The position numbers and the translations under genes were made by a program. Of a stretch of 64,000 nucleotides of DNA, positions 3,260-64,000 are shown one piece after another (positions within the stretch are counted from its first letter, which is position 1; every line of letters starts with the position of its first letter). Origin of the DNA: Halieaceae bacterium. Its GTDB lineage: Bacteria > Pseudomonadota > Gammaproteobacteria > Pseudomonadales > Halieaceae. The notes under the pieces were generated by a model. The model worked only from the letters and a program-made list of their open reading frames with translations. It had not been told where the DNA came from and made no database searches. The stretch covers positions 2,407,973 through 2,471,972 of the forward strand of contig OZ242189.1 in the NCBI GenBank assembly GCA_965205725.1, written 5' to 3'.

Positions 3260-3282
3260 GTCTGACCCTGTCATTTATCGCT

Positions 3283-4056: not shown

Positions 4057-4126
4057 GTAATCGCTCCGTTTTTGATCAATTTTTAAACAATACAGCGCCA
4101 TTGAGGCACATTTCTCTCCCCAGGGG

Positions 4127-4155: not shown

Positions 4156-4246
4156 CAAAAGGTGCGTAAAAAGAGCCGCATCCGGCTGTTTCGCAATAGC
4201 GCAGTCCTGACTCCGACAGGCTCCTGGAGATGGGGCAAAGAGCGGT

Positions 4247-5278
4247 CTACCTGGAAAGCGCCGCCGAGAGCATTTTCGCGGTGATGTCTACAATGGGAAT
4301 AACCTTGTTATACGCCATGCGGGTGGGGCCAATAACCCCCAGCACACCAATGGTTTGGCCGTCCTCGGTATAAGGCGCGGTCACTACACTGTATCCACCC
4401 AACACCTCGTAGCCCGCTTCCTCACCAATAAATATCTGCACACCCTGGGCGCGGGTACAGCGTTCCAGCAAATGCAACAGATCCTTCTTGCGCTGAAAAG
4501 CCTCAAACAAACCCTGCAATTTATCCATTTCTTCAGGGGTGGCGCTGCCCAATAACTGGGTTTCTCCAGCCACCACATAATCCTGTGCCTGCTCTTCTCC
4601 TTCAAAGGCTTTGCTGGCAAGGTCGAGCGTTGCCTGCATATAGCTATCGATACTGGCCCTGTCTGCCTCCATCTCTCGAATAATACGATGCTTGGCTTCA
4701 TCCAGAGGTCGACCGGAAAAGCGCTGGTTGAGCAAACTGGCCGCCTGCCGCAATTCCTCTTCCGAGTAGGGGCGGGAGGTATGGATGATGCGATTCTGCA
4801 CTTCCTTCTCTTTGGTGACCAAAATCACTAACACCCTGGCGCCGGAGAGTGGCAGGAATTCTACCTGGCGCAGCTGATTCGCCTGCTGCCGCGGCACGGT
4901 GACAACGCCCGCCTGTGAAGTAATGGACGAGAGTATGCCCGATGCGGTTTGCACCAGCTCCTGGGTCGATTTATCAGGGTCCAACTGCTGTAGTGCGATC
5001 AGGGATTGACTGTCAGGTTGGCGCATTTGCAACAAGCTGTCGACAAACAGGCGGTAACCGGCCGAGGTGGGAATGCGACCGGAAGAGGTATGCGGTGAAA
5101 TCAAATAGCCACGATCTTCCAGGTCAGACATGACATTGCGAACAGTCGCTGCCGACACTGGCAGGTGCGACTCCTCTAGCAGTGTTTTCGAGCCCACAGG
5201 TTGTCCATCTTTGATATGCCGCTCGACGAGAGCCTTGAGGACAACCTGAGCACGGTCTGAAATATTCTGACTCGCCAT
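4247..5278 (-). CDS. hrcA: Heat-inducible transcription repressor HrcA
   Basis: The ORF has a winged-helix N-terminus ([25 protein letters not shown]) and an HrcA C-domain, and it sits upstream of grpE. I chose the start at [11 protein letters not shown] (ATG 5278) rather than the track start at 5380. Confidence 0.9.
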
Positions 5279-5368
5279 AGCTGCGATTCTATCAACGCGG
5301 CGCGCAATAAAACCATCCTTTTCCCCCGGGTGGTTTAAGTGGCCGAGTAACTGGGGTATAAGATAGCC

Positions 5369-7030
5369 ATGCTCGTACATCTCAGCATCTCTAACTACAC
5401 CATCGTCGACCAGCTGGATATGGAATTCAGCGACGGCATGACTGTAGTTACCGGGGAAACGGGTGCCGGCAAGTCTATCATGCTTGATGCACTGGGCCTG
5501 TGCCTGGGTGATCGGGCCGACCCCAAGGCCGTAAGCGCCAACGCAGAACGCGCCGATATCACCGCAACCTTCGATATCAGCCAGTTAAAGCACGCGCAGA
5601 GTTGGCTGAAAGAGCGCGACCTGGATGCGGGCGAAGACTGTATTCTTCGTCGCAGCCTGAATCGCGAGGGCCGCTCGCGCACGTTTATCAACGGCCACGC
5701 CTCCACGCTGCAAGACTGCGCCCAACTGGGCGGCTTGTTGATTGATATTCACAGCCAACACGCTCATCAGTCGCTGTTAAGGCGAGAAGTACAGCGCTCA
5801 CAACTGGACGAGTTCGCCGGTCAAACCAAAGCCGCGCACGCCCTTGAACAGTTGGCCTCGGACTGGCTGCGACTGCAACGGCAACTGGAATACCTGGTCG
5901 GCAGCAGCGGCGAACGCAATGCCCACGCGCAATTACTGGCCTACCAGGTTGAAGAGCTGGACCAGCTAGCCCTGAAAAAAGGGGCGGTGGAAAGCCTGGC
6001 GCTGGAACAAAAACAACTGGCCAATGCCGAACAAATTTTGCAGTCCTGTCATCAGGCTATCGAGTTGTGTGAACAGCAGGAAGATGGTACTCGCCACGCT
6101 CTGCGACTGATCCAAAATGATATTCTCAGTAGCGACCAGGTAGCGACCGCTCAGGAGCTACTAGACAGCGCCGCGATTCAGCTCAATGAAGCCCGTGCGG
6201 AACTACAGCAATTAGTGGACCAGGTTGAAGTTAACCCCGAGAGTCTGCACAGCATTGAATCAAAACTCGACACGCTCTATGAAATTGCGCGCAAGCATCG
6301 GGTGAAGGCAGAGGAGCTGCCGGAACACCACTGGCAACTACAACAAGAGCTGAACGAGTTGCGCGCCAGTGACGTCAATATCGAAGCACTGCAGGAGCAA
6401 CTGGGTGGCTTGGCGCTCCACTATCGCAACGCCGCAGAGACGCTAAGTGAGGCGCGACAAAAAGCCGCCAGAAAACTCACCAAAGAGATTGAAAAACAAT
6501 TGGCCGAGCTGGCCATACAACAGTGCGTGTTTGAGATTGCGCTGACACCGCGAGCCAGTGACACCCCCCACCCCCACGGTCTGGAAGATATTGAGTTTCG
6601 CATCAGTACCAACCCCGGTTCCAAACCACAGGCGCTGGGCAAAATTGCCTCTGGTGGAGAACTCTCGCGTATCAGTCTGGCCATTCAGGTTGTTACGGCC
6701 AGTACCAGCACCGTGCCCAGCATGGTATTCGATGAGGTTGATGTGGGCATTGGCGGTGCCGTGGCCGAGGTTGTTGGCAAACTGCTGAAGACCCTGGCTG
6801 AAAAAGCTCAAATTCTCTGTGTGACTCACTTACCGCAGGTGGCCTCTCAGGGGCATCAACATTTACAGGTAGCAAAAACCAGCGATAAAAAGCGCGCCAG
6901 CGCCACGCTCACGCACCTGGATGAACAGAATCGCGTAGAAGAAATTGCCCGGATGTTGGGTGGTATAAAACTAACCGATCAAACCCGCGCCCACGCGCGA
7001 GAAATGCTGGAACAGGCTACTTCTTCTTAA
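5369..7030 (+). CDS. recN: DNA repair protein RecN
   Basis: 553 aa with an N-terminal MLVHLSISNYTIV, Walker A GETGAGKS, a long coiled coil, the SMC signature SGGELSRISLA and Walker B VFDEVDVG. Confidence 0.95.
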   Translation: MLVHLSISNYTIVDQLDMEFSDGMTVVTGETGAGKSIMLDALGLCLGDRADPKAVSANAERADITATFDISQLKHAQSWLKERDLDAGEDCILRRSLNREGRSRTFINGHASTLQDCAQLGGLLIDIHSQHAHQSLLRREVQRSQLDEFAGQTKAAHALEQLASDWLRLQRQLEYLVGSSGERNAHAQLLAYQVEELDQLALKKGAVESLALEQKQLANAEQILQSCHQAIELCEQQEDGTRHALRLIQNDILSSDQVATAQELLDSAAIQLNEARAELQQLVDQVEVNPESLHSIESKLDTLYEIARKHRVKAEELPEHHWQLQQELNELRASDVNIEALQEQLGGLALHYRNAAETLSEARQKAARKLTKEIEKQLAELAIQQCVFEIALTPRASDTPHPHGLEDIEFRISTNPGSKPQALGKIASGGELSRISLAIQVVTASTSTVPSMVFDEVDVGIGGAVAEVVGKLLKTLAEKAQILCVTHLPQVASQGHQHLQVAKTSDKKRASATLTHLDEQNRVEEIARMLGGIKLTDQTRAHAREMLEQATSS

Positions 7031-7427
7031 CGTAGAGCACCAGCGAATGGTCAACCAGGTCGAAGCCGTGCTCGGCGGCAAGTTCGTGCTGGCGCTTCTC
7101 AATGATTGGGTCAAGAAACTCGATCACTTCACCAGAGTCCATACACACCATGTGATCGTGGTGCTCACCTTTGGCCAACTCAAACACTGAATGACCCGTT
7201 TCAAAATTGTGCCGTGTGACCAGGCCAGCCGTTTCAAACTGCGTTAACACGCGATAGACCGTGGCCAAACCGACATCTTCGCCAGCATCCAGTAGCGCGC
7301 GATATACATCTTCTGCACTCATGTGCTGAACTTCGTTATCACGGTTCTCCAGGATTTGTAATATCTTGACCCGGGGCAATGTAACTTTGAGACCTGCCTT
7401 ACGCAGTTCCTGATTTTCAGCAGACAT
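7017..7427 (-). CDS. fur: Ferric uptake regulator Fur
   Basis: 136 aa with RLKILQ-like PRVKILQILE and the metal site HHDHMVC. It is divergent from bamE, as in pseudomonads. Its 3' end overlaps the recN 3' end by 14 nt (convergent genes). Confidence 0.95.
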   Translation of the reverse strand: MSAENQELRKAGLKVTLPRVKILQILENRDNEVQHMSAEDVYRALLDAGEDVGLATVYRVLTQFETAGLVTRHNFETGHSVFELAKGEHHDHMVCMDSGEVIEFLDPIIEKRQHELAAEHGFDLVDHSLVLYVKKK

Positions 7428-7503
7428 TATTGGTGCTCAGTATTCAGACATGTGATTCTGGGGTATCATGCCACCCCTGCAAAGGAAGTGAAAGTTAATC
7501 TCC

Positions 7504-7848
7504 ATGCGAATCCTGTTTTACGCACTAATTATCAGCGTTATCAGCCTGACCAGCGGCTGCGGCTCTTTAGGTTTTCCCGGTGTTTACCGAATTGATATTG
7601 AGCAGGGCAATGTTGTCACTCAGGAAATGGTCGATCAGCTCAAGCCGGGTATGACCCGTCGCCAGGTACGCTTTATATTGGGCACTCCCCTGGTTGAAGA
7701 CAGTTTTAACCAGGCTCGCTGGGACTACGTTTATCTACTGCGAAACGGCAATACAACTAAAACCAATAAACGCTTGAGTGTGTTCTTTGCCGACGATGAG
7801 CTGAGCCACTTCAGCGGCAATTTCGTACCCGCCGAGGCCGAGGGCTAA
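7504..7848 (+). CDS. bamE: Outer membrane assembly lipoprotein BamE (SmpA/OmlA)
   Basis: 114 aa with lipobox LTSGC and the SmpA/OmlA core GMTRRQVRFILGTP. The gene sits next to fur, which is the usual arrangement. Confidence 0.85.
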   Translation: MRILFYALIISVISLTSGCGSLGFPGVYRIDIEQGNVVTQEMVDQLKPGMTRRQVRFILGTPLVEDSFNQARWDYVYLLRNGNTTKTNKRLSVFFADDELSHFSGNFVPAEAEG

Positions 7849-7856
7849 GCGCCCTG

Positions 7857-8183
7857 CTACTTGCCCGCGGTTTGCTTTTCCTTTGCCCGACGCTCTTTCG
7901 CCTCTGCTGCGCGGCGTTTGCGAACTTCTTTCGGGTCGGCAATCAAGGGCCGATAAATTTCCACCCGGTCACCTGCATGCAATACTTGTCCAGCCTTAAT
8001 AGCCTTGCCAAATATACCCAGGTCAGCACCTTTCAGACTTAGACCGAAAAAATGTTTCTCAATGCCCGACTGCGCCACCGCATCTTCTGCAGTGGTACCC
8101 GCAGGCACTTCCAGCATCACAATTTCCTGCTTGTCGGGCAGGGCATAGGCAATTTCAACAGGAATTTTGTCAGCTTCGGTCAT
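7857..8183 (-). CDS. rnfH: RnfH family ubiquitin-like protein (UPF0125, RatB-like)
   Basis: 108 aa with IPVEIAYALPDKQ...GDRVEIYRPL and a basic tail. It has the conserved position downstream of the ratA homologue. Confidence 0.8.
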   Translation of the reverse strand: MTEADKIPVEIAYALPDKQEIVMLEVPAGTTAEDAVAQSGIEKHFFGLSLKGADLGIFGKAIKAGQVLHAGDRVEIYRPLIADPKEVRKRRAAEAKERRAKEKQTAGK

Positions 8184-54605: not shown

Positions 54606-54755
54606 CCAAAAGCCCTGTTTTCTGCGGCGCGAAGTGCCGTTTAAAGCAAACCCGTGCTGACTTGATTACCTTATCCAAGGGCAACGACTGGAAGGTGCAG
54701 ATGGGGGTTGGCGGTAACGACGGTTATAGAGTTAGGTTTGTTGTTCAAAGAACTA

Positions 54756-55926
54756 GTGTAGTGTATTGAACTGATTCATGTTATATAAAGTGCTTCATTC
54801 ACTACCCATTTGAAGCCAATGCCCGCCCAAATAGACATCACTTTATCAGCGCAAGAGAAAAAGCAGTTGGAAAAACAGGTTAGGAGCAAAACGACACCGG
54901 TACGATTGGTAGAGCGCTCAAGGATCATTCTGCTCGCTGCAAAAAATATTCCCAACTACAAGATTGCTGAAGAGCTGGAAATTGATGCCAACAAAGTGGG
55001 CCGGTGGCGCAATCGTTTTTTCGAGAGAGGGCTTAAGGGGATAGAGAAAGATTTACCCAGAGGGGCTAATCACGGCGGCAAGAATTCTGCGGACCAGGCA
55101 AAGCTGCGTTCGAAAGTCATCAAGATAACCACGCAGGAAAAACCCAAGGATGGCACCCACTGGACGACCCGAGGTTTGGCAAAAGTGATGGGAATTAATC
55201 ACTCCTTTATAAACAGAGTGTGGCGAGAAGTTGGTTTGAAGCCACACCTGGTTGCCCGATTCAAGGTGAGCAGCGACCCTGCCTTTGAAGACAAGCTACG
55301 CGATGTCGTTGGCTTGTATGTATCGCCGCCAGAGAATGCCGTTGTTTTCTGTGTTGACGAGAAGAGTTCCATTCAAGCGCTGGATAGGTCGCAGCCGGGA
55401 TTGCCGATGAAGCCAGGACGCGCCGGAACCATGACTCACGACTATAAGCGTCATGGTACAAGCACCTTGTTTGCGGCACTGAACACCCTGACGGGTGATA
55501 TTATCGGTGAGTGTAAGAAGCGTCACCGGCACCAGGAGTTTTTGGCGTTTCTGAAGACTGTGGAGAAACAAACACCCAAAGAGTTAGACCTTCACCTTAT
55601 CGTTGACAACTATGCGACGCACAAACACGAAACAGTGAAGAACTGGATTAAGCGTCATAAGAGAGTTCACTTACACTTTATTCCAACGAGTTCTTCGTGG
55701 CTAAATCTGGTGGAGAGATTTTTTGGATGGTTGACAGAAAGGCGGCTGCGTCGTGGTGTATTCACATCAGTACAACAGTTGGAAGAGACTATCATGGATT
55801 TTATTGAGAGACACAATGAAGATAAAAAGCCATTTGTTTGGACAAAGTCTGCGGGAGAGATTCTGGAGAAAGTGGGCCGCGCAAGACATGCACTCTCAAA
55901 TCAATAATTAGTTTAATACACTACAC
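54756..55926 (+). mobile_element. IS630-family insertion sequence (intact)
   Basis: Terminal inverted repeats GTGTAGTGTATTGAAC... and ...GTTTAATACACTACAC. A TA dinucleotide lies on both sides (54754-55 and 55927-28), which is the family's target duplication. Confidence 0.85.
54810..55907 (+). CDS. IS630-family DDE transposase
   Basis: 365 aa with N-terminal HTH domains and DDE residues in FCVDEKS, LIVDNYATH and SSWLNLVERFF. The start is TTG 54810 or ATG 54819. Confidence 0.9.
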   Translation: MKPMPAQIDITLSAQEKKQLEKQVRSKTTPVRLVERSRIILLAAKNIPNYKIAEELEIDANKVGRWRNRFFERGLKGIEKDLPRGANHGGKNSADQAKLRSKVIKITTQEKPKDGTHWTTRGLAKVMGINHSFINRVWREVGLKPHLVARFKVSSDPAFEDKLRDVVGLYVSPPENAVVFCVDEKSSIQALDRSQPGLPMKPGRAGTMTHDYKRHGTSTLFAALNTLTGDIIGECKKRHRHQEFLAFLKTVEKQTPKELDLHLIVDNYATHKHETVKNWIKRHKRVHLHFIPTSSSWLNLVERFFGWLTERRLRRGVFTSVQQLEETIMDFIERHNEDKKPFVWTKSAGEILEKVGRARHALSNQ

Positions 55927-56007
55927 TAGGGCACCTCAATCTTTAACGGCTAAGAAGTGCTTATAATCGCGCTCATGTACGCCGAGTATTTTTGCTCTCC
56001 ATGTGGC

Positions 56008-57372
56008 TCAGTTGTTTTCATTCATGGTGCTAATGGCGAATTTCTCAAGCAGCACCTTACTTGGGTGATTGGCGAGCGAGACAAGTTTATTTGCCAGCGC
56101 AATTGGTACAATTGCATCATCGTACATATCGCACTTGAGCTTTTGGATGTTGCTAAGCACTATATCCAAATTAGCATAATGTTCTTTGCTAGGCTCAAGG
56201 ATCACATTTTTATCAGGCACGGGTACAGTCACTACAAGGATTTGGCCATCTTCTGAATGAAATATAACCTTGCCACTATAGTAGGAAGTGCGGCCATAGT
56301 GCATTTTTGCTGAATCCCCAGGGATAATATACTTGTAAATATAGCTATTACTTAGAAGGATAAACCTTCCTGCCTGTAACATAGGGGAGCCAGTTGGAGG
56401 TGATGATACCTCTTGTGCATGCTCAACAAATGCTCCGCTTTTCTCAAGGCCGACAAGAAAAAGATTATTATGTTCTTTTAGGTAATTGCATAGAGCCCGC
56501 ATGGGCGCATTCATATTGGCAGTTTGCCCAGAAAAGCTTAATGGCCCATCAGCAATAAAAAGAAATTCATTTAGTAGCCTTGTTTGGTGCTTGTGTATAA
56601 ATCGAATAAAGTGTACGAGAATTAATTGTTCAATCAGACGAGTTAAATAACCCAATATTCCGGTAGCACCCTGCTCCTCATCCACAGCTTCGTGAAGACG
56701 GAAGACATCCGTCAAATACACAGCTCCAGAAGGAGAATTAAATGTGTAATCATCGTTCATGTCGGACTGTGTAAGTGAGTATTTCCCTGTGCCAACGTTA
56801 AGGTTTGGGTTACTTGCCAAGTCATAGCTATTACGTGGTGTATCTCGATACTCTTCAAAAATAAACCACTTTAATGTTTCCATAAATGTAGAGCTATCCC
56901 TCTGCTTCATGAAAAAATCATAGATAGTTTTTCGCATAGAATCTTTAAGCGAAAACTCTTTGTTGGTGACAATATTCTTTATTGGTATTGCAAGCTTGAA
57001 TCGCTGAAGGTTATGTAGTTTTTGCATGTCTTCAGGAAAGATATACGGCTTTTCAGATAGTCCCTCCAAGTCTTTGACATTAAAAAGCACTGCGCCAAAT
57101 TGAAAAAAAGCAAGCTGGGCACTTGGGAAGTTCTTCTTTACCTCTACCGTTGTATATCCACCATCAACTGCAAGTATATTGGTGATGGGGTTGTTGGTCT
57201 GAGTATCAAGGGTTTCAAAATCAGTTGTATCATTACTATCTATATCGTTTGAATTTTTAGGCAGAGAACAGGTGCTTATGAAATCCTTAATAAAAGGGTC
57301 ATTAATGATATGAGTGTGATTGATTTTCGCTGCCCACTCGTTGGGCTTATTCCCCCTGCTGGTAGAACCCAT
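56008..57372 (-). CDS. NurA-like (RNase-H-fold) nuclease, third gene of the island operon
   Basis: 454 aa and AT-rich. Motifs ILAVDGGY, FIADGPLSF, VGLEKSGAF and C-terminal VPIALANKLVSL correspond to the conserved NurA blocks (DGS, DG.L, G..K(S/T), YP..L..AH-like). The gene starts 2 nt after the ATPase stop. Confidence 0.6.
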   Translation of the reverse strand: MGSTSRGNKPNEWAAKINHTHIINDPFIKDFISTCSLPKNSNDIDSNDTTDFETLDTQTNNPITNILAVDGGYTTVEVKKNFPSAQLAFFQFGAVLFNVKDLEGLSEKPYIFPEDMQKLHNLQRFKLAIPIKNIVTNKEFSLKDSMRKTIYDFFMKQRDSSTFMETLKWFIFEEYRDTPRNSYDLASNPNLNVGTGKYSLTQSDMNDDYTFNSPSGAVYLTDVFRLHEAVDEEQGATGILGYLTRLIEQLILVHFIRFIHKHQTRLLNEFLFIADGPLSFSGQTANMNAPMRALCNYLKEHNNLFLVGLEKSGAFVEHAQEVSSPPTGSPMLQAGRFILLSNSYIYKYIIPGDSAKMHYGRTSYYSGKVIFHSEDGQILVVTVPVPDKNVILEPSKEHYANLDIVLSNIQKLKCDMYDDAIVPIALANKLVSLANHPSKVLLEKFAISTMNENN

Positions 57373-57374
57373 CG

Positions 57375-59456
57375 TTAAACTTCCTTGTTGGCGAGAAATC
57401 TATCTATTTGGACCGGCACAACAAAAGGATTTGTATAGGTCTTCATACGGACAAAACCCTTATCGTTTCCTGAGCTAAACTTGAGCAGTGATCCTATAAA
57501 GTCAGAAAAATCGTAATATTTGCGCAGTTCTTTCAGTTCATCTTCATTATTTAGATGGGCAATGAACCAATTCTGAGTATTCTTCAATATATTGGAGCTG
57601 ATAGAGCTGACTTCCTGGGTAGCATACGTCATACCTAAATGAAGTTTCGCGCCCTCTTTAGCTAGCCGATTATATACGTCACTCAAGTCTTTATCATCTT
57701 TCTTGGGAAAAAGATTGTGAGCTTCTTCAAAATAAAATTGTATATGGTTATTTGGAAGAGTTTTAGTAAACCTATCCATAGAATCTTCAAAAACTTTCCT
57801 CGTTATCTTTTCCGAGTACAGGTTTCTGATCCTTTCTTCCCCTTGAGCAAGGTCTATAATTACAATTTTGCCTTTTCTTAGGGCATTGAGAATTTCAGTC
57901 TCAAAGGACGTGCTAGATAATTCAGTGTGTAAATTTTGAAACTGTCGTAATAGCCTAAATCCACTATAACTTGCTTGCTTTCCGGGGCCGGGTTTCCTTG
58001 TTAAAAAAGTCAATAAAGCAAGCATATCTTCATCAAAAAAATCCTTTTCCTTATCTTTTCTATAGGCTTCAAACTTTTCCCGATGCTCATCGTTGTCCAA
58101 CGCATCAAAAACAGTTTTGAACCATCGTGTTGCTTGATCTAAAGTTAAGCCATTATGAGGTGCAAGGTCATCAACAATTTTGTTGACAGTCTTTGCACAG
58201 CCATAGAATTTGACACGTTCCATACTGGAGGGCAGCCTATAGCCTGCTTCATGAAGGCAGCACTTATATATTGCAACTTTTTTGTCATATGCAATCGCAG
58301 CATGTCTTTCATCACTGGTTTTATCTTGCTGGGATTTAAAGTAATTTTCAGGCTCTATCAAATCTACTGTACAGAAGCTTTTGATATAGTTGCTAGACTG
58401 ATCGGAAAGGCCGCTTGTAATCAGTTTAAATCCAGCTTGTAATTCATTGTAAAAGTTGACCTTAAGGACTTTGAAACCTTTATCCGTTTTATCTACTATG
58501 GAGTAGCGATCAACCAACTGCTCGTATAATTCAAATATCGCAGTTCCTTTATCCTGGAGATTGGGATTTGCATATTCACCGTTTACATCAAAGATTATCT
58601 GACCAACCGGATACTGTGGTGCACCTTCATCAGAAAAAGGAGGCAACTCATTTGTAACGGTAGGTAGATTAGCGGTAAGGGATTTTTTTGATATTTCAGC
58701 AGTAGCCTCAATAATTTTCTTAACCGTATTAGATTTACCAGTACGAGTCATGCCGAATAAAGCGGTTCTTTTACCAACAAAATCTTGGGGGCTTATATAA
58801 ACTTCGACATTCTCAGAGGTGGATTGGAAGCGCCGACTTGAAGAATATCTAACAATACCAATTTTGAACTCATTTTCATTACCAGCGACAATTTCACTGT
58901 CTCGCTGATTAACAATTTTCCTCAAAACTTCATCTGTAGCCTTATAAACACTATAGTTGTTTGCGGAATAAAAGTTTTCTAGATCTGCACCGAATTCAAG
59001 TGTTTCTATTTCTCTCTCTTCACCATCTTGCCGGATATGTTCCTTTAGCTTATAAAAAGCACCTAGTACGCGACATTGAAGACCGGAAAAACTAAATTCA
59101 TAGCGGGTGAAATCATCTAACTTGCTAGGATTTACACTTCCTGCCCTGCCACTTATGTCAGCGCCATCTTTATAATATTCAATCATTGAGCTAACGACGT
59201 CATTATCTGTTGGTAGCTTGGAGGGAGTTAATGCGCGTAAAAGTATGGCCTCTTCTACACCATCTTCACCATCATAGAAAGCGAGAAGGAAAGTCCCTTG
59301 AGGGATACCCTTAACACGATGCTTCCAAGCATCGGAAACTAGAATTTGAGCGCTCTCATAGTCTAGGTAAAAAGGGCGGCCAACAAACAGCTCGTCTTTA
59401 CGACCTTCCTTGAAAATATCGATATTTAAAATATCTCTAAGCTTCTGCTCTAACAC
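57375..59456 (-). CDS. HerA/FtsK-superfamily P-loop ATPase (DUF87-like), second gene of the island operon
   Basis: 693 aa. It has an N-terminal barrel-like segment (VGRPFYLDYESAQILVSD...GTFLLAFY), Walker A GMTRTGKSNT, Walker B FYFEEAHNLFP and YATQEVSSIS...NWFIAHLNNEDE. This is the HerA pattern hhhhEEAH / TQ.P / ..l.n..d. Confidence 0.7.
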   Translation of the reverse strand: MLEQKLRDILNIDIFKEGRKDELFVGRPFYLDYESAQILVSDAWKHRVKGIPQGTFLLAFYDGEDGVEEAILLRALTPSKLPTDNDVVSSMIEYYKDGADISGRAGSVNPSKLDDFTRYEFSFSGLQCRVLGAFYKLKEHIRQDGEEREIETLEFGADLENFYSANNYSVYKATDEVLRKIVNQRDSEIVAGNENEFKIGIVRYSSSRRFQSTSENVEVYISPQDFVGKRTALFGMTRTGKSNTVKKIIEATAEISKKSLTANLPTVTNELPPFSDEGAPQYPVGQIIFDVNGEYANPNLQDKGTAIFELYEQLVDRYSIVDKTDKGFKVLKVNFYNELQAGFKLITSGLSDQSSNYIKSFCTVDLIEPENYFKSQQDKTSDERHAAIAYDKKVAIYKCCLHEAGYRLPSSMERVKFYGCAKTVNKIVDDLAPHNGLTLDQATRWFKTVFDALDNDEHREKFEAYRKDKEKDFFDEDMLALLTFLTRKPGPGKQASYSGFRLLRQFQNLHTELSSTSFETEILNALRKGKIVIIDLAQGEERIRNLYSEKITRKVFEDSMDRFTKTLPNNHIQFYFEEAHNLFPKKDDKDLSDVYNRLAKEGAKLHLGMTYATQEVSSISSNILKNTQNWFIAHLNNEDELKELRKYYDFSDFIGSLLKFSSGNDKGFVRMKTYTNPFVVPVQIDRFLANKEV

Positions 59457-60453
59457 GACTATCTCCTGTGGCTATTATCTGTAATTTCGCATCAAGCTCT
59501 GGTTCCTCAAAGCGAATAATAGAATCATAGGCATAGTCTTCACTAGCTTCGATTGAAATCCAGCGGCGTTTTAGCTTTTCGGCGCAATACCCTGTTGTAT
59601 TGCTCCCTGCGAAAGGGTCCAGGATTAGGTCGTCTTCGTCAGTCAGAAACTCAGTAAAGAAGTTGATTAGTCCTCTGTGCATTCTAGCGGGATGAGGGGT
59701 AATATTTTCTTCTCTGCAACGCTTAAAATAGTAATCGTTGGACGTTGTATTAGAAAAACTAAGGACATTGTGAGGCAGTCTAACATCACGTTTTACATCT
59801 ATTGGCTCTAATTCAAATAGGTTGTGTGCAATGCTGCCGCCGTTGTCTTTTGCGAATGCTGAGGGACTTATTCCATGTTCAGAAGGACGCTTTCCTGCAT
59901 TAAATTTCTTTGTTTCAATGAGTTTTTCCATTCCCTTTGAATAAGGCCGAAGCACCTTTGAATTATCTGCCTTAGGAAAATCATTTTTGGCTATCCACCA
60001 GACATGTGTATAACTATCTACAGTACGTAGTCGATTGACAGTTACCCATTGAGCTGGAGAGGGAAGGCGTGAGGGGTTATAACATATGAATTCTTGGATT
60101 AAACGCAAATCGGCGTTGGCATTTTTAACAAGGCCAAAAAGACATTCAAGATGCAATAAAGATTGAACTGGCCTGCCGGTTTCCCATGCGTTACCAATTT
60201 CGATAACCAGTGAACCATCATCTGCAAGTAATTCGGAAAAAATGGGAGCTAGTTCAACAAACCAGTTGTAATAATCTTCCCCCTGAAGATTGCCATAACG
60301 CTTTTTGTTATTTAGCGGAAATGGAGGCGAGGTAATAATCAGATTGAATTTACTGCCATAATACCTACCAAGATATGATTTTGAGACTTCAACCGAGTCT
60401 CCAGCAATAAGTTTTCCGTATCTTGTTGTATATAACTCTGATTTCATATGCAC
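59437..60453 (-). CDS. Beta-class DNA methyltransferase (N4-C/N6-A family; SPPF suggests m4C), first gene of the island operon
   Basis: 338 aa. Motif IV ITSPPF is at residues ~41-46 and motif I DPFAGSNTTG at ~281-290, i.e. IV before I, which is the beta order. A ~230-aa putative target-recognition region lies between them. The 3' end overlaps the ATPase start by 20 nt. Confidence 0.9.
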   Translation of the reverse strand: MHMKSELYTTRYGKLIAGDSVEVSKSYLGRYYGSKFNLIITSPPFPLNNKKRYGNLQGEDYYNWFVELAPIFSELLADDGSLVIEIGNAWETGRPVQSLLHLECLFGLVKNANADLRLIQEFICYNPSRLPSPAQWVTVNRLRTVDSYTHVWWIAKNDFPKADNSKVLRPYSKGMEKLIETKKFNAGKRPSEHGISPSAFAKDNGGSIAHNLFELEPIDVKRDVRLPHNVLSFSNTTSNDYYFKRCREENITPHPARMHRGLINFFTEFLTDEDDLILDPFAGSNTTGYCAEKLKRRWISIEASEDYAYDSIIRFEEPELDAKLQIIATGDSRVRAEA

Positions 60454-60649
60454 TTTGTTGTTTAGCTATTTTGGTCAACAGTTTGGAGTTATAACTGAAT
60501 CTGGTGTTTAAGTATTTAAAAATAGGGTGGCGTATCGGATTGATTTGTTGTTACCACAAAATGAACCAACCAAGAGGATATACCACCAAGAGTCAGAGTA
60601 ACGTCATTGACTTGGAACGTCGAGATAAAAAGGAGAACCCGTAGCCGAT

Positions 60650-60788
60650 ATGTTAACAGCAGGCGCACAAAAACGGACCCATCAGGCCGTTGAATCTAAA
60701 TTGCAGACCTTGTTGGAGCAGCATGTCGACATTCGGACATCAGCCGGTACCGCCAGTGTTGTTCGAAATGGCTACCTACCTGAACGCG
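60650..60788 (+). pseudogene. Fragment of an IS256-family (mutator-type) transposase N-terminus
   Basis: MLTAGAQKRTHQAVESKLQTLLEQHVDIRTSAGTASVVRNGYLPER resembles the ...LLEQH...VVRNGYLPER... segment of proteobacterial IS256-type transposases. It is cut off by the neighbouring IS630 remnant. The boundary is approximate. Confidence 0.4.
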
Positions 60789-61473
60789 TCTGCAAACTAG
60801 TCTAGTGTCCTGTCCGGTTAGTTCGTTTAAGAACACGATTCACAGACTCGATGATTTCGTCGGCTGATTTTGTCCATCGAAATGGCTTCGGTTCTTCGTT
60901 GTGCATGTCGAGATAATCTCGTATCGCTTTTTCCAGAGCAGGCACGGACCTATGCGTACCCCGCTTTAACTGATGCTCAGTGAGCGTTGCAAAAAACCGC
61001 TCCACCCGGTTCATCCATGAGCTGTACGTTGGCGTGAAGTGACAATGGAATCCTGGATGGCGTAATAGCCACCTTTGTACTTTCTCCGTCTTATGGGTAG
61101 CGTCGTCGTCCAGTATCAGGTGAACATCCAGGCCAACTGGCACCTGGGTATCCATGTGCCGCAGGAAACGTATAAATTCCGTGCTCCTGTGGCGTCGCTT
61201 GAGTTTGCCAATCACTTGACCGGTAGCCACGTCCAAAGCCGCGAATAGCGTTGTGGTGCCATATCGCCGATGGTCGTGAGTGCGACTCTCCGGCAGGCCA
61301 AAGTTCATTGGCAATGAGGGCTGTGTACGATCCAATGCTTGTATCTGGCTTTTCTCGTCCACGCATAAAACCAGGGCTTTATCGGGTGGGTCGAGGTATA
61401 GCCCAACAATATCCCTGACCTTTTCAATAAAATGAGGGTCAGTCGACAACTTGAAACTGTGTGACAGGTGGGG
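60789..61473 (-). mobile_element. 5'-truncated IS630-family element (second, divergent copy)
   Basis: ORF 60802-61449 (215 aa) corresponds to residues ~155-365 of the intact copy (LCVDEKS, LILDDDATH, SSWMNRVERFF). Homology continues upstream to PHL (61465-61473) and then stops at the IS481 end. The HTH half is missing. Confidence 0.75.
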
Positions 61474-61560
61474 TGTCCGGGTTCAGATAGAAGTGAGACT
61501 TCTTAAAGTGTAAAAATCGGGTAGCCTGTGAGTTCTTAAATCCACACAGGAGACTACCCG

Positions 61561-62152
61561 ATGCAGATCAAAAGCCTGCGTATCAAATCATACAAAAGTT
61601 GGGCCATTAACGATACCGCCCGTGTCGATGCGATAGCGCGGATGAAGACGCTGAAGCTTTGCCGCAAACTAAAAGCCGAAGGCTGTAGCAGTGCCACTTG
61701 CCTTGAGGCTATTGGTTTGTCTAAAGCCACCTATTACCGCTGGTTAAAGCGTTATCAGGAACAGGGTATGGCCGGTCTGGAAAGGCGTAGCTGTCGTCCT
61801 CAGCGTACACGTGCGGTGCAATGGAGCAAAACAGCAGGAGCAACAAGTTCAACACCTCAGGTTGCGCTTTCCCTTGTGGGGTAAGCGCAAAATCTGGAAA
61901 GTGCTGAGCCGTGATCACGGTTTTACGCTGAGCATCAGCACTGTAGGTCGCCTATTGAAGAAGCTGCTCCGACTGAACCGTATTAAGCCCGTCGCCTTCT
62001 ACTTTGGACGGATAAAGCCAAAACGTCGTCGTCCGTTTAAGCACCACGCCAGGCGCTGGAAATACGGCATGAAAGCTAAGCAGCCTGGCGAGCTAATACA
62101 GGTTGACCCTATGAGTGTCCGCTTTACCGAAGGCTTTGCTCTCAAAGAGTTT
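61561..62152 (+). pseudogene. IS481-family transposase, N-terminal part (HTH and first catalytic Asp)
   Basis: Two overlapping frames (61561-61884 and 61811-62173) imply a frameshift near the A-run at ~61830. The sequence ...GELIQVDPMSVRFTEGFALKEF then runs into the IS1595 end. Confidence 0.7.
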
Positions 62153-63185
62153 CCTAATTACCACTTAACCTAAGCCAATCTTCAAGATATTGTCCGGCAT
62201 TGGCGGTGTCCTGAGCGCGGCACGAGCAAGCCTCGGTATTAGCCCGCACAAATCAAAGCGACGATTGAAACGATACTGAAATTCTGACAAGTAACGCTGT
62301 GCGTATTGCGGTCGAATCCCATGATAGGTACTGCGTAAGGAACTCTTTAAATGACCGAGAATAGTATTGACCCAATAGAACTCAGGCTCTTCAACAGAGG
62401 CTCTCCCGCCGCCGCATACAATCTTGTCGTGTAAACACCCTGCATCAGCGACGGCATTAAAACACGCCAAACCATCGGAGATAACGGTACTGCCCTCGGT
62501 CAGATGTTGCTGAGTCCATGACTTGATCTCTTCGGTTCGGAAACCCTTTACGACCGACAACTTAACCCGAACGGGGCAATGGTCGCTAGTGGTCTCGACC
62601 GCCGCCACAAAAGGGGTCTTACCAGCAGCACCGCGCCCCGGTTTACACCCCGTACGCTCGCCTCCCAGATAGGCATCATCCAATTCAATAAAGCCCGATA
62701 GTTTCTTCGGGTGATCCCGCTCCATCATCACCTGCATGAGTTTGTGCTTCATTCTCCAGGCCGCATTGTAGGAAATGCCTAGATGACGATGTAGTTTCAT
62801 TGCCGAGATACCTTTCTTATCCTGAGTGACCAGATAGATACCCTGAAACCATAGTGTTAATGGTAGTTTGGTGGATTCAAAGATCGTTCCAGCGGTCAGT
62901 GACGTTTGGTGGTGACAGCGATTGCACTGCTGTAGTTTGCGACTGGTTAACTGACAGCATTTATCGTGGTTGCAATTCGGGCATTGGAATCCTTCGGGCC
63001 AGCGCCACGCATAAAGTGCATCGAAGCACTGCTCTTCGGTACCGTACTGATTGATGAATTCGTTCAAACTGATACCTTTCTGGAATTGCACTTTATTACG
63101 CGCCATGACTGATCTCCTTGTGAATCAAATACCGATACTGTGTTTATGTACAGTATAGCAGGGCTTAGCCATAATGGTAATTAGG
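62153..63185 (-). mobile_element. IS1595-family (ISXO2-like) insertion sequence, intact
   Basis: 1033 bp. Inverted repeats are CCTAATTACCACTTAACCTAAGCC and GGCTTAGCCATAATGGTAATTAGG. A perfect 8-bp target duplication AAGAGTTT lies at 62145-62152 and 63186-63193. Confidence 0.88.
62165..63106 (-). CDS. IS1595-family transposase (zinc-ribbon plus ISXO2-like DDE domain)
   Basis: 313 aa with an N-terminal zinc ribbon CPNCNHDKC...CNRCHHQTS, followed by the DDE core (IELDDAYLGG..., ISDGLACF). Confidence 0.88.
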   Translation of the reverse strand: MARNKVQFQKGISLNEFINQYGTEEQCFDALYAWRWPEGFQCPNCNHDKCCQLTSRKLQQCNRCHHQTSLTAGTIFESTKLPLTLWFQGIYLVTQDKKGISAMKLHRHLGISYNAAWRMKHKLMQVMMERDHPKKLSGFIELDDAYLGGERTGCKPGRGAAGKTPFVAAVETTSDHCPVRVKLSVVKGFRTEEIKSWTQQHLTEGSTVISDGLACFNAVADAGCLHDKIVCGGGRASVEEPEFYWVNTILGHLKSSLRSTYHGIRPQYAQRYLSEFQYRFNRRFDLCGLIPRLARAALRTPPMPDNILKIGLG

Positions 63186-63193
63186 AAGAGTTT

Positions 63194-63610
63194 AAAGCCA
63201 CCTGCCCGATCACTGGCACCACCATCATGCGCACCTACAGTAGCGCCAGCAGTCGCAACGCCAGGCGTTTCCTTGACGATCTGATCGCACAGCGACCTGA
63301 CGCCCTGGTCTCTGTTCAGGTGGATGGCGGCAGCGAGTTCAGGGATGAGTTTGAATCGGCTTGTCAGGCACTGGGCATGTCTCTGTTCGTGCTACCGCCC
63401 AGAAAGCCCAAATGGAATGGCTGTGTTGAGCGAGCCAACGGTACAACACGTTATGAGTTCTATCCGTTTTACGAGGGCAGTTTGACGGTTGCTGCGGTGA
63501 ATAAAGAGTTGGCGGACTATCAACAATACTACAATCATTATCGACCCCATGATGGGGTGGGTTTGGAAACACCAATAAGCTATTATCAGAAACTCATACA
63601 GGCGGCCTGA
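63194..63610 (+). pseudogene. IS481-family transposase, C-terminal part (rve core)
   Basis: KATCPITGTTIMRTYSS...VQVDGGSEF...KWNGCVERANG... Deleting 62153-63193 joins this in frame to ...FALKEF at 62152. Confidence 0.75.
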
Positions 63611-63798
63611 TTTGTCTCACAGGTACTGAACCCGCACAGTGTGATGACCGGCGTTAAATTTAAAGATAGAATCGAGGTGAAAACAGCTGGCTAGGTCGCC
63701 GCCTAACTCGGGTACGGAAACACCACGTTTGACAACAACTCCGAAGTGTAGCAGACCTGCTATAATTTCGCGCCGTTTGAACCCGCAAGGAATACACC

Positions 63799-64000
63799 GT
63801 GGAACCGATGACCCATATTGCGCTGCGCGCTGCCCGTAAAGCCGGCGAGCTGATTGCGAGGGCCATGGACGATGTCGAGCGGCTGGACCTGGAATCGAAA
63901 AGCGTCAATGACTTTGTCACCGAGATCGACCGCAAAGCCGAACAGGACATTATTTACGACCTCAACAAGGCTTACCCCAGCCACAGCTTTCTGGGCGAGA
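63799..64000 (+). CDS. suhB: Inositol monophosphatase family protein SuhB (5' part; continues past the window)
   Basis: (GTG)EPMTHIALRAARKAGELIARAM...NDFVTEIDRKAEQDIIYDLNKAYPSHSFLGE matches E. coli MHPMLNIAVRAARKAG...NDFVTNVDKAAE. AAGGAA lies upstream. Confidence 0.9.
   Translation, partial: MEPMTHIALRAARKAGELIARAMDDVERLDLESKSVNDFVTEIDRKAEQDIIYDLNKAYPSHSFLGE

What the first reader, a model, noticed from the sequence alone, without database searches (positions are those of the whole stretch)
56008..60453. AT-rich three-gene operon: SPPF DNA methyltransferase + HerA-like ATPase + NurA-like nuclease, a candidate methylation-guarded HerA-NurA defence system
Seen in sequence:
- Three minus-strand ORFs are packed head to tail. 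The MTase stop at 59437 overlaps the ATPase ATG at 59456 by 20 nt. Only 57373-57374 separates the ATPase from the third ORF.
- The segment is visibly much more AT-rich than the flanking core genes. Codons are dominated by AAA/AAT/TTT/ATT. GC was not computed.
- ORF1 has SPPF upstream of DPFAGSNTTG, the beta-class order.
- ORF2 has Walker A GMTRTGKSNT, Walker B FYFEEAHNLFP and a YATQEVSS...IAHLNNEDE block, which is how HerA/DUF87 ATPases look.
- ORF3 has ILAVDGGY, FIADGPLSF, VGLEKSGAF and VPIALANKLVSL, matching the conserved NurA blocks.

Established knowledge: HerA-NurA is a hexameric translocase plus 5'-3' nuclease pair for DNA end resection in archaea and a few bacteria. HerA-family ATPases also partner Sir2 or DUF4297 effectors in published anti-phage systems.

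Inference: a cognate methyltransferase translationally coupled to HerA-NurA suggests an R-M-like module. Its restriction arm would be a processive translocase-nuclease rather than a PD-(D/E)xK endonuclease. I saw no canonical REase gene. I do not recognise this trio as a named system, but I cannot search databases.
Basis: partly seen in the sequence, partly recalled or inferred. Interest (0 to 1): 0.9.

Follow-up and report, generated by a model that had tools for sequence, protein, structure and literature searches.

The report
Methyltransferase-linked HerA–NurA restriction module
A 4.4-kb AT-rich mobile cassette encodes an N4-cytosine DNA methyltransferase coupled to a ring ATPase and an RNase-H-fold nuclease whose closest solved relative is the TdpAB complex of a sulfur-based restriction system, so it is most likely an unnamed, widespread methylation-based restriction system with an unusual DNA-shredding arm.

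Summary
Three tightly packed minus-strand genes (56008-60453) sit in a GC trough (0.39 against 0.53) between IS elements. All three family calls are confirmed. ORF1 is a beta-class N4-cytosine MTase, about 48% identical to M.PvuII. ORF2 is a HerA/DUF87 ATPase. ORF3 is a divergent NurA nuclease. Only slips: the ATPase starts with GTG, not ATG, and the MTase probably starts at ATG 60447.

The closest solved structures for both ORF2 and ORF3 are TdpA and TdpB, the restriction arm of the phosphorothioate-based Tdp system. The trio is a conserved unit. In 31 of 33 assessable species-level loci, spanning more than 12 phyla, the order is MTase-HerA-NurA. The three proteins co-evolve, and DNA homology ends exactly at the trio's borders. 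The cassette is AT-richer than its host in 31 of 32 cases. It rides on ICEs, plasmids and IS islands. Distant branches pair HerA-NurA with other MTase classes.

PADLOC has no NurA model that matches ORF3, and no paper in the searched library names the trio.

Best reading: an R-M-like system, the methylation counterpart of Tdp. Function is untested. Intact MTase-less variants exist (one Gemmataceae locus, three Nostocales plasmids), which is a real caveat. Novelty: new variant of a known kind.

The parts
59437..60453 (-). DNA N4-cytosine methyltransferase, beta class (M.PvuII family). The ORF runs from GTG 60453. The likely real start is ATG 60447 (336 aa).
   Evidence: PF01555 1.5e-27. PADLOC MTase_II 6e-83. 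M.PvuII 1boo 2.6e-67, aligned over residues 4-320 at about 48% identity with an 18-aa insert at 210-227. Homologues align from residue 3.
60319..60330 (-). MTase catalytic motif IV, S42-P-P-F45. The SPPF form is typical of N4-cytosine enzymes.
   Evidence: Read in the sequence. Invariant in 31 trios.
59590..59613 (-). MTase AdoMet-binding motif I, F281-AGSNTTG288, downstream of motif IV (beta-class order).
59437..59456 (-). 20-nt overlap of the MTase stop with the ATPase GTG start. GGAG lies 7 nt upstream of the GTG, which suggests translational coupling.
   Evidence: An overlap or a gap under 40 nt is conserved in 31 loci.
57375..59456 (-). HerA/FtsK-class ring ATPase (TdpA-like), 693 aa.
   Evidence: DUF87 3e-12. 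PDB sequence search: TdpA 8wet 1e-18. Family profile: TdpA 80 bits against at most 43 for other HerAs, with a shared C-terminal PFVVP tail. Foldseek: TdpA 7e-17, then DUF4297-HerA, Sulfolobus HerA, T. kodakarensis HerA-NurA and Sir2-HerA.
58731..58754 (-). Walker A, G235-MTRTGK241-S242.
   Evidence: Invariant in 31 trios and in distant branches.
57723..57737 (-). Walker B, F574-YFEE578.
57873..58451 (-). Helical insertion in the ATPase domain (residues 336-528). It is the most variable and most cassette-like part of the system.
   Evidence: The model is helical here with pLDDT 80-93. Mean identity is 47% against 74% for the RecA core. Identity to the window is bimodal, 65-78% or 34-43%, independent of MTase and NurA identity. 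It cannot be aligned to TdpA.
56008..57372 (-). Divergent NurA-family (RNase H fold) nuclease, TdpB-like, 454 aa.
   Evidence: PF09376 24 bits, cut-off 21. 14 of 67 diverse family members hit NurA, best 8.5e-26. Foldseek: TdpB 8wfd_G 1.3e-8, D. radiodurans NurA 7e-5, TM1739, P. furiosus NurA. Family profile hits TdpB at E 0.034 on the DGPL/EKS strands. Invariant D70, D222, E248, D275, E310, H318 and D418.
60454..60650 (-). AT-rich leader upstream of the MTase, the presumed promoter region and right edge of the low-GC island.
   Evidence: Composition and sequence. No strong sigma-70 consensus was found. Not conserved in relatives. This part is weakly supported.
54753..55929 (+). Intact IS630-family element with 24-nt terminal inverted repeats, abutting the NurA end of the cassette.
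60802..61449 (-). 5'-truncated IS630-family transposase on the MTase side. Beyond it lies an IS481-like gene split by an IS1595 element (62151-63187).

Best explanation
This is a self-contained, horizontally mobile, three-gene restriction-modification-like system. It is the methylation counterpart of the phosphorothioate-based Tdp system.

Step 1. The M.PvuII-family enzyme puts N4-methylcytosine on a specific host site. The family and an intact catalytic site are shown. The site, possibly CAGCTG, is inferred.

Step 2. The HerA-like protein forms a hexameric ring translocase capped by a NurA-like nuclease dimer, as in TdpAB, Deinococcus HerA-NurA and Thermococcus HerA-NurA. The folds and intact catalytic residues are shown. 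Assembly is inferred from homologues.

Step 3. The complex pumps unmodified invading DNA into the nuclease and degrades it processively. This is inferred.

Step 4. Methylated self DNA is spared. Either the mark blocks loading or translocation, as reported for phosphorothioate in Tdp (my recollection of An et al. 2025, a paper not held in the library), or the MTase acts as the site-reading subunit, as Mod does in Type III systems. This is inferred and is the least certain step.
For: Family and fold of all three proteins. TdpA and TdpB are independently the best solved match for ORF2 and ORF3. The PDB entries show TdpAB as one complex with AMPPNP and DNA.

Synteny: 31 of 33 assessable GTDB-species loci have MTase-HerA-NurA with overlapping or near-abutting genes, from Gammaproteobacteria to Cyanobacteria, Chloroflexota, CPR phyla, Acidobacteriota, Actinomycetota and Planctomycetota. 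One truncated Methanotrichaceae (archaeal) contig carries HerA-NurA but cannot be assessed for the MTase.

Co-evolution: MTase against NurA r = 0.90, and MTase against the HerA N-terminal domain r = 0.92.

Unit of transfer: DNA homology is confined to 56034-60452, and the trio is AT-richer than its flanks in 31 of 32 hosts.

Modularity: distant branches (24-28% NurA identity) again carry an adjacent MTase, but of another class. These are permuted PF01555 on Deferribacter and Halorarius plasmids and a Dam-like D12 MTase in a Vibrio prophage beside its integrase.

R-M-type decay: L046 keeps an intact MTase beside HerA/NurA remnants, and in L040 all three genes are decayed.

Context: a Salmonella ICE next to an HNH/ScoMcrA-type gene and ArdC. 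Neighbours are enriched in Type III Mod/Res, PD-(D/E)XK, HNH, serine and tyrosine recombinases and transposases, with no conserved fourth gene.

Catalytic motifs of all three enzymes are invariant. CAGCTG is depleted in the window's core (4 observed, 17.2 expected, P about 2e-4) and absent from the cassette. An independent suggestion that archaeal HerA-NurA shreds both strands and may act in defence comes from PMC12977600.
Against: There is no experimental evidence of any kind.

Intact HerA-NurA pairs lacking an adjacent MTase exist, nested within MTase-linked lineages. L027 (Gemmataceae) has no MTase within 6 kb. Three Nostocales plasmids have an XRE-type HTH gene in the MTase position. All catalytic motifs are kept in these. 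So the nuclease arm can persist without a linked MTase.

A ring translocase that tracks the backbone has no obvious way to read a major-groove methyl group. No sequence-reading domain was identified.

The variable HerA insertion does not co-vary with the MTase.

CAGCTG depletion is not specific when pooled over hosts: O/E is 0.59, rank 6 of 64 palindromes.

The structure models are only moderately confident (pLDDT 64 and 69).

A Thermus NurA-HerA-methylase cluster was experimentally tied to DNA donation rather than defence.
Confidence: 0.6

Rival explanations
1. HerA-NurA is a methylation-independent defence effector. It would be an end-dependent DNA shredder (RecBCD-like) or one triggered by infection, like Sir2-HerA and DUF4297-HerA. 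The MTase would be an accessory with another role, such as protection against other restriction systems, epigenetic regulation, or helping to stabilise the cassette in its host.
For: MTase-less but apparently active pairs sit in defence-type contexts. Nostocales plasmids have XRE-HerA-NurA next to AbiTii or an exonuclease-STAND NTPase. L027 is another case. T. kodakarensis HerA-NurA degrades both strands from any DNA end. No methyl-reading domain was found. The known HerA defence systems carry no MTase.
Against: 31 of 33 loci keep the MTase directly upstream, often with overlapping stop and start codons. MTase and NurA co-evolve at r = 0.90. Independent distant branches recruited other MTase classes to the same pair. 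An orphan MTase is left after loss of the nuclease arm (L046). The closest solved relative, TdpAB, belongs to a modification-dependent system.
Confidence: 0.2
2. The trio is DNA-mobilisation machinery of mobile elements, like the Thermus thermophilus TdtA 'transjugation' operon. HerA would pump donor DNA, NurA would process it, and the MTase would mark or protect the transferred DNA.
For: In ICEth1 the operon Tth111II - NurA-like - TdtA (HerA-like) - PF01555 methylase is required for DNA donation (PMC5365140). In Salmonella the trio lies inside an ICE between TraG and TraI.
Against: The trio also sits in IS-flanked chromosomal islands (this window), in non-mobilizable plasmids, in a prophage and in CPR genomes, with no conserved conjugation or transfer gene beside it. 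Gene order and MTase class differ from ICEth1. In the Salmonella ICE it lies in the cargo region with an HNH restriction gene and the anti-restriction gene ArdC.
Confidence: 0.07
3. This is an ordinary DNA double-strand-break repair HerA-NurA pair, as public annotation names it, with a hitch-hiking orphan methyltransferase.
For: RefSeq/PGAP names relatives 'DNA double-strand break repair nuclease NurA'. Deinococcus HerA-NurA has a repair role according to the literature cited.
Against: The distribution is patchy and cross-phylum, with 64-80% identity between unrelated phyla. The cassette is AT-rich and foreign in composition in 31 of 32 hosts. It is carried by mobile elements. Linkage to an MTase is strict. 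No mre11/rad50 genes are linked. It is closer to TdpAB than to repair-type HerA-NurA.
Confidence: 0.04

Closest known systems
TdpABC, the phosphorothioate-dependent defence system of thermophiles (An et al. 2025, Nat Chem Biol; PDB 8wet, 8wfd, 8y1k)
   Same: It has a three-gene logic: one DNA-modifying enzyme, a HerA-class ring ATPase and a NurA-fold nuclease. TdpA is the best solved match to ORF2 by sequence (1e-18; profile 80 bits), by fold (7e-17) and through a shared C-terminal PFVVP tail. TdpB is the best match to ORF3 by fold (1.3e-8) and the only nuclease hit by profile.
   Different: The modification here comes from an AdoMet-dependent N4-cytosine MTase (base methylation), not phosphorothioation by TdpC. 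Sequence identity is only about 11-17%. ORF2 is 107 aa longer, with a different and larger helical insertion. ORF3 is about 80 aa longer, with conserved N- and C-terminal extensions. Hosts are mesophiles of many phyla. I could not retrieve an intact tdpABC locus, so gene order and the family of TdpC were not compared.
Thermus thermophilus ICEth1 tdtA operon (Tth111II - NurA-like - TdtA - PF01555 methylase; Blesa et al. 2017, PMC5365140)
   Same: A NurA-like nuclease, a HerA-class ATPase and a PF01555-family methylase are adjacent on a mobile element.
   Different: The gene order is the opposite (NurA-HerA-MTase). It has an extra Type IIG enzyme. Its methylase is 410 aa and its NurA 377 aa. Experiments tied it to DNA donation, not restriction. 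The sequence relationship to the window's proteins was not tested.
Canonical HerA-NurA of archaea and Deinococcus (PDB 4d2i, 7f6d, 9x1l-p, 3taz)
   Same: It has the same two folds and the presumed hexamer-plus-dimer translocase-nuclease architecture.
   Different: It has no linked MTase. It is chromosomal and often sits with mre11 and rad50. It is a more distant match than TdpAB. The window's NurA barely reaches Pfam's threshold.
Sir2-HerA (Nezha) and DUF4297-HerA anti-phage systems
   Same: A HerA-class ATPase is paired with an effector, and defence function has been validated. These are structural hits at E of about 1e-12. PADLOC HerA models match ORF2's C-terminal half.
   Different: The effector is Sir2 or DUF4297, not NurA. 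There is no modification gene. PADLOC has no model matching ORF3.
PvuII Type II R-M system, and ATP-dependent Type I, Type III and CglI/NgoAVII-type R-M systems
   Same: The MTase is a full-length homologue of M.PvuII at about 48% identity. As in Type I, Type III and CglI systems, restriction would use an NTP-driven motor.
   Different: There is no R.PvuII-like, PD-(D/E)XK, HNH or PLD endonuclease and no C protein. The motor is an FtsK/HerA-class ring ATPase rather than an SF2 helicase. The nuclease has an RNase H fold.

Membership tests
Beta-class N4-cytosine DNA methyltransferases (PF01555, M.PvuII type) | N6_N4_Mtase domain above the Pfam threshold | tested here: met
   97.5 bits against a cut-off of 26.7.
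Beta-class N4-cytosine DNA methyltransferases (PF01555, M.PvuII type) | Motif IV (S/D/N)PP(Y/F) lies N-terminal to the FxGxG AdoMet motif, with the TRD between them | tested here: met
   S42PPF45 precedes F281AGSNTTG288. The alignment to M.PvuII (1boo) is collinear over residues 4-320.
Beta-class N4-cytosine DNA methyltransferases (PF01555, M.PvuII type) | It produces m4C at a defined site | not testable with these tools
   Only indirect evidence exists: the SPPF form, 48% identity to M.PvuII, and CAGCTG depletion in the window.
HerA/FtsK-class ATPases (PF01935) | DUF87/HerA central domain with Walker A, Walker B and a Q sensor | tested here: met
   47.6 bits against a cut-off of 23.2. GMTRTGKS, FYFEE and ATQE are invariant.
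HerA/FtsK-class ATPases (PF01935) | HerA fold: N-terminal barrel plus a RecA-like core with a helical insertion | tested here: met
   70 PDB hits at E <= 1e-3. The 50 listed are all TdpA or HerA chains.
HerA/FtsK-class ATPases (PF01935) | Hexameric ring that translocates dsDNA | not testable with these tools
   No multimer modelling or biochemistry was available.
NurA nucleases (PF09376) | NurA domain above the Pfam threshold | tested here: met
   24.0 bits against a cut-off of 21, covering only profile positions 2-145 of 254. 14 of 67 diverse family members hit NurA, best 8.5e-26.
NurA nucleases (PF09376) | RNase H-like fold with conserved acidic catalytic residues | tested here: met
   Foldseek hits to TdpB, D. 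radiodurans NurA, TM1739 and P. furiosus NurA. D70 and D222 are invariant, and E248 and D275 nearly so, down to 21% identity. The model's confidence is moderate (pLDDT 64).
NurA nucleases (PF09376) | Forms a complex with its HerA partner | not testable with these tools
   Indirect only. The genes are 2 nt apart. This HerA family co-occurs with the NurA-like gene in 5 of 5 plasmid hits. NurA co-evolves with the HerA N-terminal domain at r = 0.91.
Tdp system (tdpABC) | TdpA-like ATPase and TdpB-like nuclease | tested here: met
   Best solved match for both proteins, but identity is only about 11-17%.
Tdp system (tdpABC) | TdpC phosphorothioation enzyme and PT modification of DNA | tested here: not met
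   The only modification gene is an AdoMet-type M.PvuII-family MTase. No other gene lies in the cassette. So it is not a member of Tdp, although it may work like it.
Type II R-M (PvuII-like) | A cognate sequence-specific endonuclease adjacent to the MTase | tested here: not met
   No REase-family ORF lies in the cassette, and none is conserved in the flanks of 35 loci.
Type I / Type III R-M | SF2 helicase-nuclease (HsdR or Res), plus an S subunit or Mod | tested here: not met
   ORF2 is an FtsK/HerA-class ATPase, not SF2. There is no HsdS or HsdR.
Sir2-HerA / DUF4297-HerA defence systems | Sir2 or DUF4297 effector next to HerA | tested here: not met
   The partner is NurA-like. PADLOC returns no family for ORF3.
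Anti-phage defence system (generic) | Protects against phage or plasmid | not testable with these tools
   Context only: ICE cargo, prophage accessory region, plasmids, and R-M and recombinase neighbours.

The most novel reading that the evidence does not exclude
The trio defines a previously unnamed class of restriction-modification system. Its restriction arm is a HerA-ring translocase plus a NurA (RNase H fold) exonuclease that shreds any DNA lacking the cognate methyl mark. The same arm has been paired repeatedly with different modification enzymes: m4C, Dam-like m6A, permuted PF01555, and phosphorothioation in Tdp. On this reading a ring translocase can read a base modification, or the MTase serves as its site sensor. 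The swappable helical insertion in HerA would be an arms-race interface with phage inhibitors or triggers.
Probability: 0.45. Interest if true: 0.8.

Novelty: new variant of a known kind. Interest (0 to 1): 0.68.

Why it matters
If confirmed, this would extend the classical R-M typology, whose nucleases are PD-(D/E)XK, HNH, PLD or GIY-YIG and whose motors are SF2 helicases. The new architecture would be a ring-translocase/RNase-H-fold shredder guarded by ordinary base methylation.

It would show that the TdpAB-type machine is not tied to phosphorothioation. It would instead be a general module that can be coupled to different epigenetic marks.

It would re-annotate hundreds of gene families now labelled 'DNA double-strand break repair nuclease NurA / DUF87' in bacteria, CPR organisms and archaea. 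Among the hosts are a Salmonella ICE and Vibrio prophages.

It also poses a sharp mechanistic question. How does a hexameric DNA pump distinguish methylated from unmethylated DNA?

In practice such systems are barriers to transformation. Their MTases would create unexplained m4C motifs in methylomes.

Tried and rejected
(1) Sequence searches of ORF3 against the PDB, alone and with a 16-sequence profile, found nothing. Only a 67-sequence profile reached TdpB, and weakly.

(2) I tried to obtain an intact tdpABC locus so as to compare gene order and the family of TdpC. A 192-aa TdpA segment from the PDB alignment recovered only fragments and remnants. The Tdp paper itself is not in the library.

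(3) The Iyer et al. 2004 FtsK-HerA survey is not held.

(4) Literature searches for a named MTase+HerA+NurA system found none. The SXT/R391 ICE paper, the Deinococcus m4C R-M paper, the CglI paper and the Campylobacter paper mention the terms only in unrelated places or in reference lists. The Aravind-group 'HerA/FtsK capture' papers never mention NurA.

(6) No blastn match exists in complete E. coli genomes, and no relative was found in IMG/VR by pattern scan.

(7) CAGCTG avoidance as a proxy for specificity is significant in this window but not distinctive when pooled over 32 hosts. I rejected it as proof.

(8) The Gimesia benthica 'MTase pseudogene with intact nuclease arm' looked like evidence against the R-M model. 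It reduces to a single A7-to-A6 difference from an otherwise identical contig, so I treat it as a probable sequencing error.

(9) The hypothesis that the variable HerA insertion co-varies with the MTase TRD, as a specificity domain would, was not supported (r = 0.11-0.37).

(10) The simple promoter and terminator scan found nothing convincing upstream of the MTase. No tRNA lies near the island.


Full report
OBSERVATION. The first two overlap by 20 nt and the last two are 2 nt apart. GC falls to 0.37-0.43 across 56000-60750, against 0.49-0.59 in the core genes to the left (iscS, iscR, trmJ). The trio is 0.394 and the core 0.529. Every quoted motif is in the translations.

Two corrections are needed. 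The ATPase start at 59456 is GTG preceded by GGAG, not ATG. The MTase probably starts at the ATG at 60447, where both protein and DNA homology to relatives begin.

The cassette is bracketed by an intact IS630 element (54753-55929, 24-nt inverted repeats) and by a nest of damaged IS elements. These are a truncated IS630 transposase at 60802-61449 and an IS481-like gene split by an IS1595 at 62151-63187. No tRNA lies nearby.

WHAT THE PROTEINS ARE.

ORF1 is a PF01555 MTase (1.5e-27). Its best solved relative is M.PvuII, the N4-cytosine MTase of CAGCTG (2.6e-67). The alignment is collinear over residues 4-320 at about 48% identity and includes the region between motifs IV and I, where beta-class enzymes carry their target-recognition domain. 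ORF1 has an 18-aa insert at 210-227. The SPPF motif and the FxGxG motif are invariant in 31 orthologues.

ORF2 is a HerA/DUF87 ATPase (3e-12) with invariant Walker A, Walker B and Q sensor. Its AlphaFold model (pLDDT 69) returns only TdpA and HerA-type structures among the listed matches.

ORF3 only just passes Pfam's NurA threshold (24 bits against 21), and PADLOC returns nothing for it. However, its model (pLDDT 64, pTM 0.68) matches TdpB, Deinococcus NurA, TM1739 and Pyrococcus NurA in that order. In addition, 14 of 67 diverse family members hit Pfam NurA directly, the best at 8.5e-26. The acidic residues expected of an RNase-H-fold nuclease (D70, D222, E248, D275) are conserved down to 21% identity.

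THE KEY NEW POINT. The nearest solved relatives of ORF2 and ORF3 are the two subunits of one complex, TdpAB.

TdpA is the top hit for ORF2 in three ways:
- by sequence (1e-18);
- by family profile (80 bits, against at most 43 for any other HerA, with a shared C-terminal ...PFVVP... tail);
- by fold (7e-17).

TdpB is the top fold hit for ORF3 (8wfd chain G, 1.3e-8). It is also the only nuclease reached by the family profile (E 0.034, on the LFIKDGpLA...G-x-EKS strands).

Tdp is described in held papers as a third phosphorothioate-based R-M system in which tdpC alone makes the modification (PMC12914056; PMC13223576). The primary paper (An et al. 2025) is not held. My recollection of its abstract is that PT on self DNA inhibits TdpAB translocation and nuclease activity. 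I mark this as memory, not as a tool result.

CONSERVATION AND MOBILITY. The NurA-like protein has 1,735 relatives in the 90%-clustered collection. They are 64-80% identical between unrelated phyla. In the 50%-clustered library there are 664 clusters at E <= 1e-3 and 100 at E <= 1e-30.

A scan of one genome per species returned 44 loci. Of the 33 with enough upstream DNA:
- 31 have the M.PvuII-family MTase directly upstream of HerA-NurA, with overlapping or nearly abutting genes;
- one (L040) has the MTase downstream, with all three genes decayed;
- one (L027) has no MTase.

Two further loci, outside the 33, also have the MTase downstream of NurA. L023 is truncated in HerA. L046 keeps an intact MTase beside HerA/NurA remnants.

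Pairwise-distance matrices of the MTase, NurA and the HerA N-terminal domain correlate at r = 0.90-0.92. The three are therefore inherited as a unit.

DNA-level homology between the window and its relatives spans 56034-60452 and nothing more. The trio is AT-richer than its flanks in 31 of 32 hosts, by 8 GC points on average.

Carriers include a Salmonella enterica subsp. salamae ICE, where the trio sits between TraG and an HNH/ScoMcrA-type gene, ArdC and TraI, and the IS-flanked island of this window.

A census of 131 flanking ORFs from 35 loci shows no conserved fourth gene; the commonest family occurs 5 times. What recurs is other MTases, Type III Mod/Res, PD-(D/E)XK, HNH, large serine recombinases, integrases and transposases.

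MODULARITY. In branches only 24-28% identical in NurA, an MTase is again adjacent but of another kind:
- Deferribacter megaplasmid: a permuted PF01555 enzyme upstream, with herA there split by an IS200/IS605 insertion;
- haloarchaeal (Halorarius) plasmid: a permuted PF01555 enzyme downstream;
- two Vibrio prophages: a Dam-like D12 MTase next to HerA-NurA, right beside the integrase.

Together with Tdp, this suggests a restriction arm that has been coupled repeatedly to different modification enzymes.

CAVEATS. Four intact HerA-NurA pairs lack an adjacent MTase.

L027 (Gemmataceae) has none within 6 kb. Three Nostocales plasmids carry an XRE-type HTH gene in the MTase position, with AbiTii or an exonuclease-STAND protein downstream. 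Their catalytic motifs are intact. They are nested within MTase-linked lineages: the Nostocales branch is 70% identical in NurA to the MTase-bearing L042, and L027 is 64% identical to it. The MTase was therefore lost at least twice.

Either an unlinked MTase protects these hosts, or the pair is repressed, or discrimination does not depend only on methylation.

I found no domain that could read a methyl mark or a sequence. The most variable element, the HerA helical insertion (residues 336-528), does not co-vary with the MTase (r = 0.41 overall and 0.17 in the close clade).

CAGCTG is depleted in the window's core (4 observed, 17.2 expected, P about 2e-4) and absent from the cassette. Pooled over 32 hosts it ranks only 6th of 64 palindromes. 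The specificity therefore remains a guess.

MECHANISM. The best-supported reading (confidence about 0.6) is an R-M-like system. The MTase marks self DNA with m4C. A HerA hexamer capped by a NurA dimer pumps and shreds unmarked DNA. The mark either blocks loading or translocation (Tdp-like), or is read by the MTase acting as the site sensor (Type III-like).

What is shown: families, folds, intact active sites, linkage, co-evolution, mobility and R-M-type decay, namely the intact MTase beside HerA/NurA remnants in L046. What is inferred: assembly, processive degradation, and above all how methylation is sensed.

The rivals are as follows:
- a methylation-independent HerA-NurA effector with an accessory MTase (0.2);
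- DNA-donation machinery as proposed for Thermus TdtA, where a NurA - HerA - PF01555 methylase cluster plus Tth111II is needed for transjugation (PMC5365140) (0.07);
- plain DSB repair, as public annotation implies (0.04).

COMPARISON WITH WHAT IS KNOWN. The trio is not a member of Tdp, because it has no PT enzyme. It is not Type I, II or III R-M, because it has no SF2 motor and no REase-type nuclease. It is not Sir2-HerA or DUF4297-HerA, because the effector differs and those systems have no modification gene.

PADLOC-DB v2 recognises only a Type II MTase and generic HerA. No paper among the 8 million searched names the combination. A 2026 paper on Thermococcus HerA-NurA speculates about a defence role but mentions neither methylation nor Tdp. 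REBASE and DefenseFinder could not be consulted.

VERDICT. Because the PT-based Tdp system and the Thermus cluster are precedents, I rate it a new variant of a known kind rather than categorically new. It is still of considerable interest: it is widespread, unnamed and mis-annotated as repair, and it raises a clean mechanistic question.

Noticed in passing
window 57873-58451 (HerA residues 336-528); loci L002-L047: The helical insertion in the ATPase is bimodal. It is 65-78% identical to the window in L003, L006, L009, L016 and L017, and only 34-43% identical in all other trios. That includes L005, whose MTase (86%) and NurA (78%) are among the closest. It behaves like a swapped cassette, decoupled from the rest of the operon. 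It may be an arms-race interface.
   Followed up: partly
Alignment A4 (distant NurA-like family members); L051:6974-8350: Most distant members of the NurA-like family carry a CPxC...CxxC zinc-ribbon insertion between the equivalents of residues ~180 and ~215. The window's clade has no cysteines there.
   Followed up: no
L052 (Tolypothrix), L055 (Calothrix), L056 (Nostoc) plasmids: A variant operon, XRE-family HTH - HerA - NurA, has no MTase. It is conserved on three Nostocales plasmids (NurA 89-95% identical to each other). Its neighbours are AbiTii or an RNase T-type exonuclease fused to a STAND NTPase.
   Followed up: partly
L050 (Vibrio phage 10N.286.55.C4_PE001, PQ189371.1) 1309-5750: A temperate Vibrio phage carries HerA (730 aa) - NurA-like (459 aa) and a Dam-like D12 MTase on the opposite strand, immediately next to its integrase and excisionase. 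This is the typical accessory-gene position in a prophage.
   Followed up: partly
L049 (Deferribacter desulfuricans pDF308) 3126-6924: The herA gene of an MTase-HerA-NurA locus is split by an IS200/IS605 element (tnpA plus a TnpB RNA-guided nuclease gene). The MTase and NurA are left intact.
   Followed up: no
L046 3614-5425; L040 6066-10249; L031 ~6000-8000: Decay states of the system. L046 keeps an intact MTase beside short HerA and NurA remnants. In L040 all three genes are frameshifted, and the MTase lies downstream of NurA. In L031 only HerA is interrupted.
   Followed up: partly
L001 (Gimesia benthica CP043930.1) ~5469: The MTase is frameshifted by a single A7-to-A6 change in a homopolymer. 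Over the 973 aligned bases of the gene this is the only difference from contig L002, whose MTase is intact. This is probably a sequencing error, but slip-strand switching is not excluded. A second, unrelated PF01555 MTase (275 aa) lies 1.4 kb downstream on the other strand.
   Followed up: partly
window 1-54700 and 60800-64000: Several palindromic hexamers are strongly under-represented against a maximal-order Markov expectation. Over 1-54700, CGATCG is 0 observed against 7.1 expected and CGTACG 0 against 3.0. Over both ranges, CAGCTG is 4 against 17.2. This hints at a history of restriction pressure in the host.
   Followed up: partly
window 54753-55929 and 60802-63610: The cassette sits in an IS hot spot next to trmJ-iscR-iscS. 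There is an intact IS630 element with 24-nt inverted repeats, a 5'-truncated second IS630 transposase, and an IS481-like transposase gene (61561-62173 and 63227-63610) interrupted by an IS1595 element with 26-nt inverted repeats (62151-63187).
   Followed up: partly
L060 8001-14369: A search with a TdpA fragment hit a HerA-like gene fragment directly followed by Mre11-like (Metallophos), Rad50-like (SMC_N/SbcC) and Csm6-family genes, with several HNH genes nearby. This is a HerA-Mre11-Rad50-Csm6 neighbourhood.
   Followed up: no
L027 ~5400-5990: Upstream of the MTase-less HerA-NurA pair of the Gemmataceae MAG there is a short direct repeat. In one translated frame 'GAGAPPGTPDSAPA' appears twice, in the space where other loci carry the MTase.
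   Followed up: no
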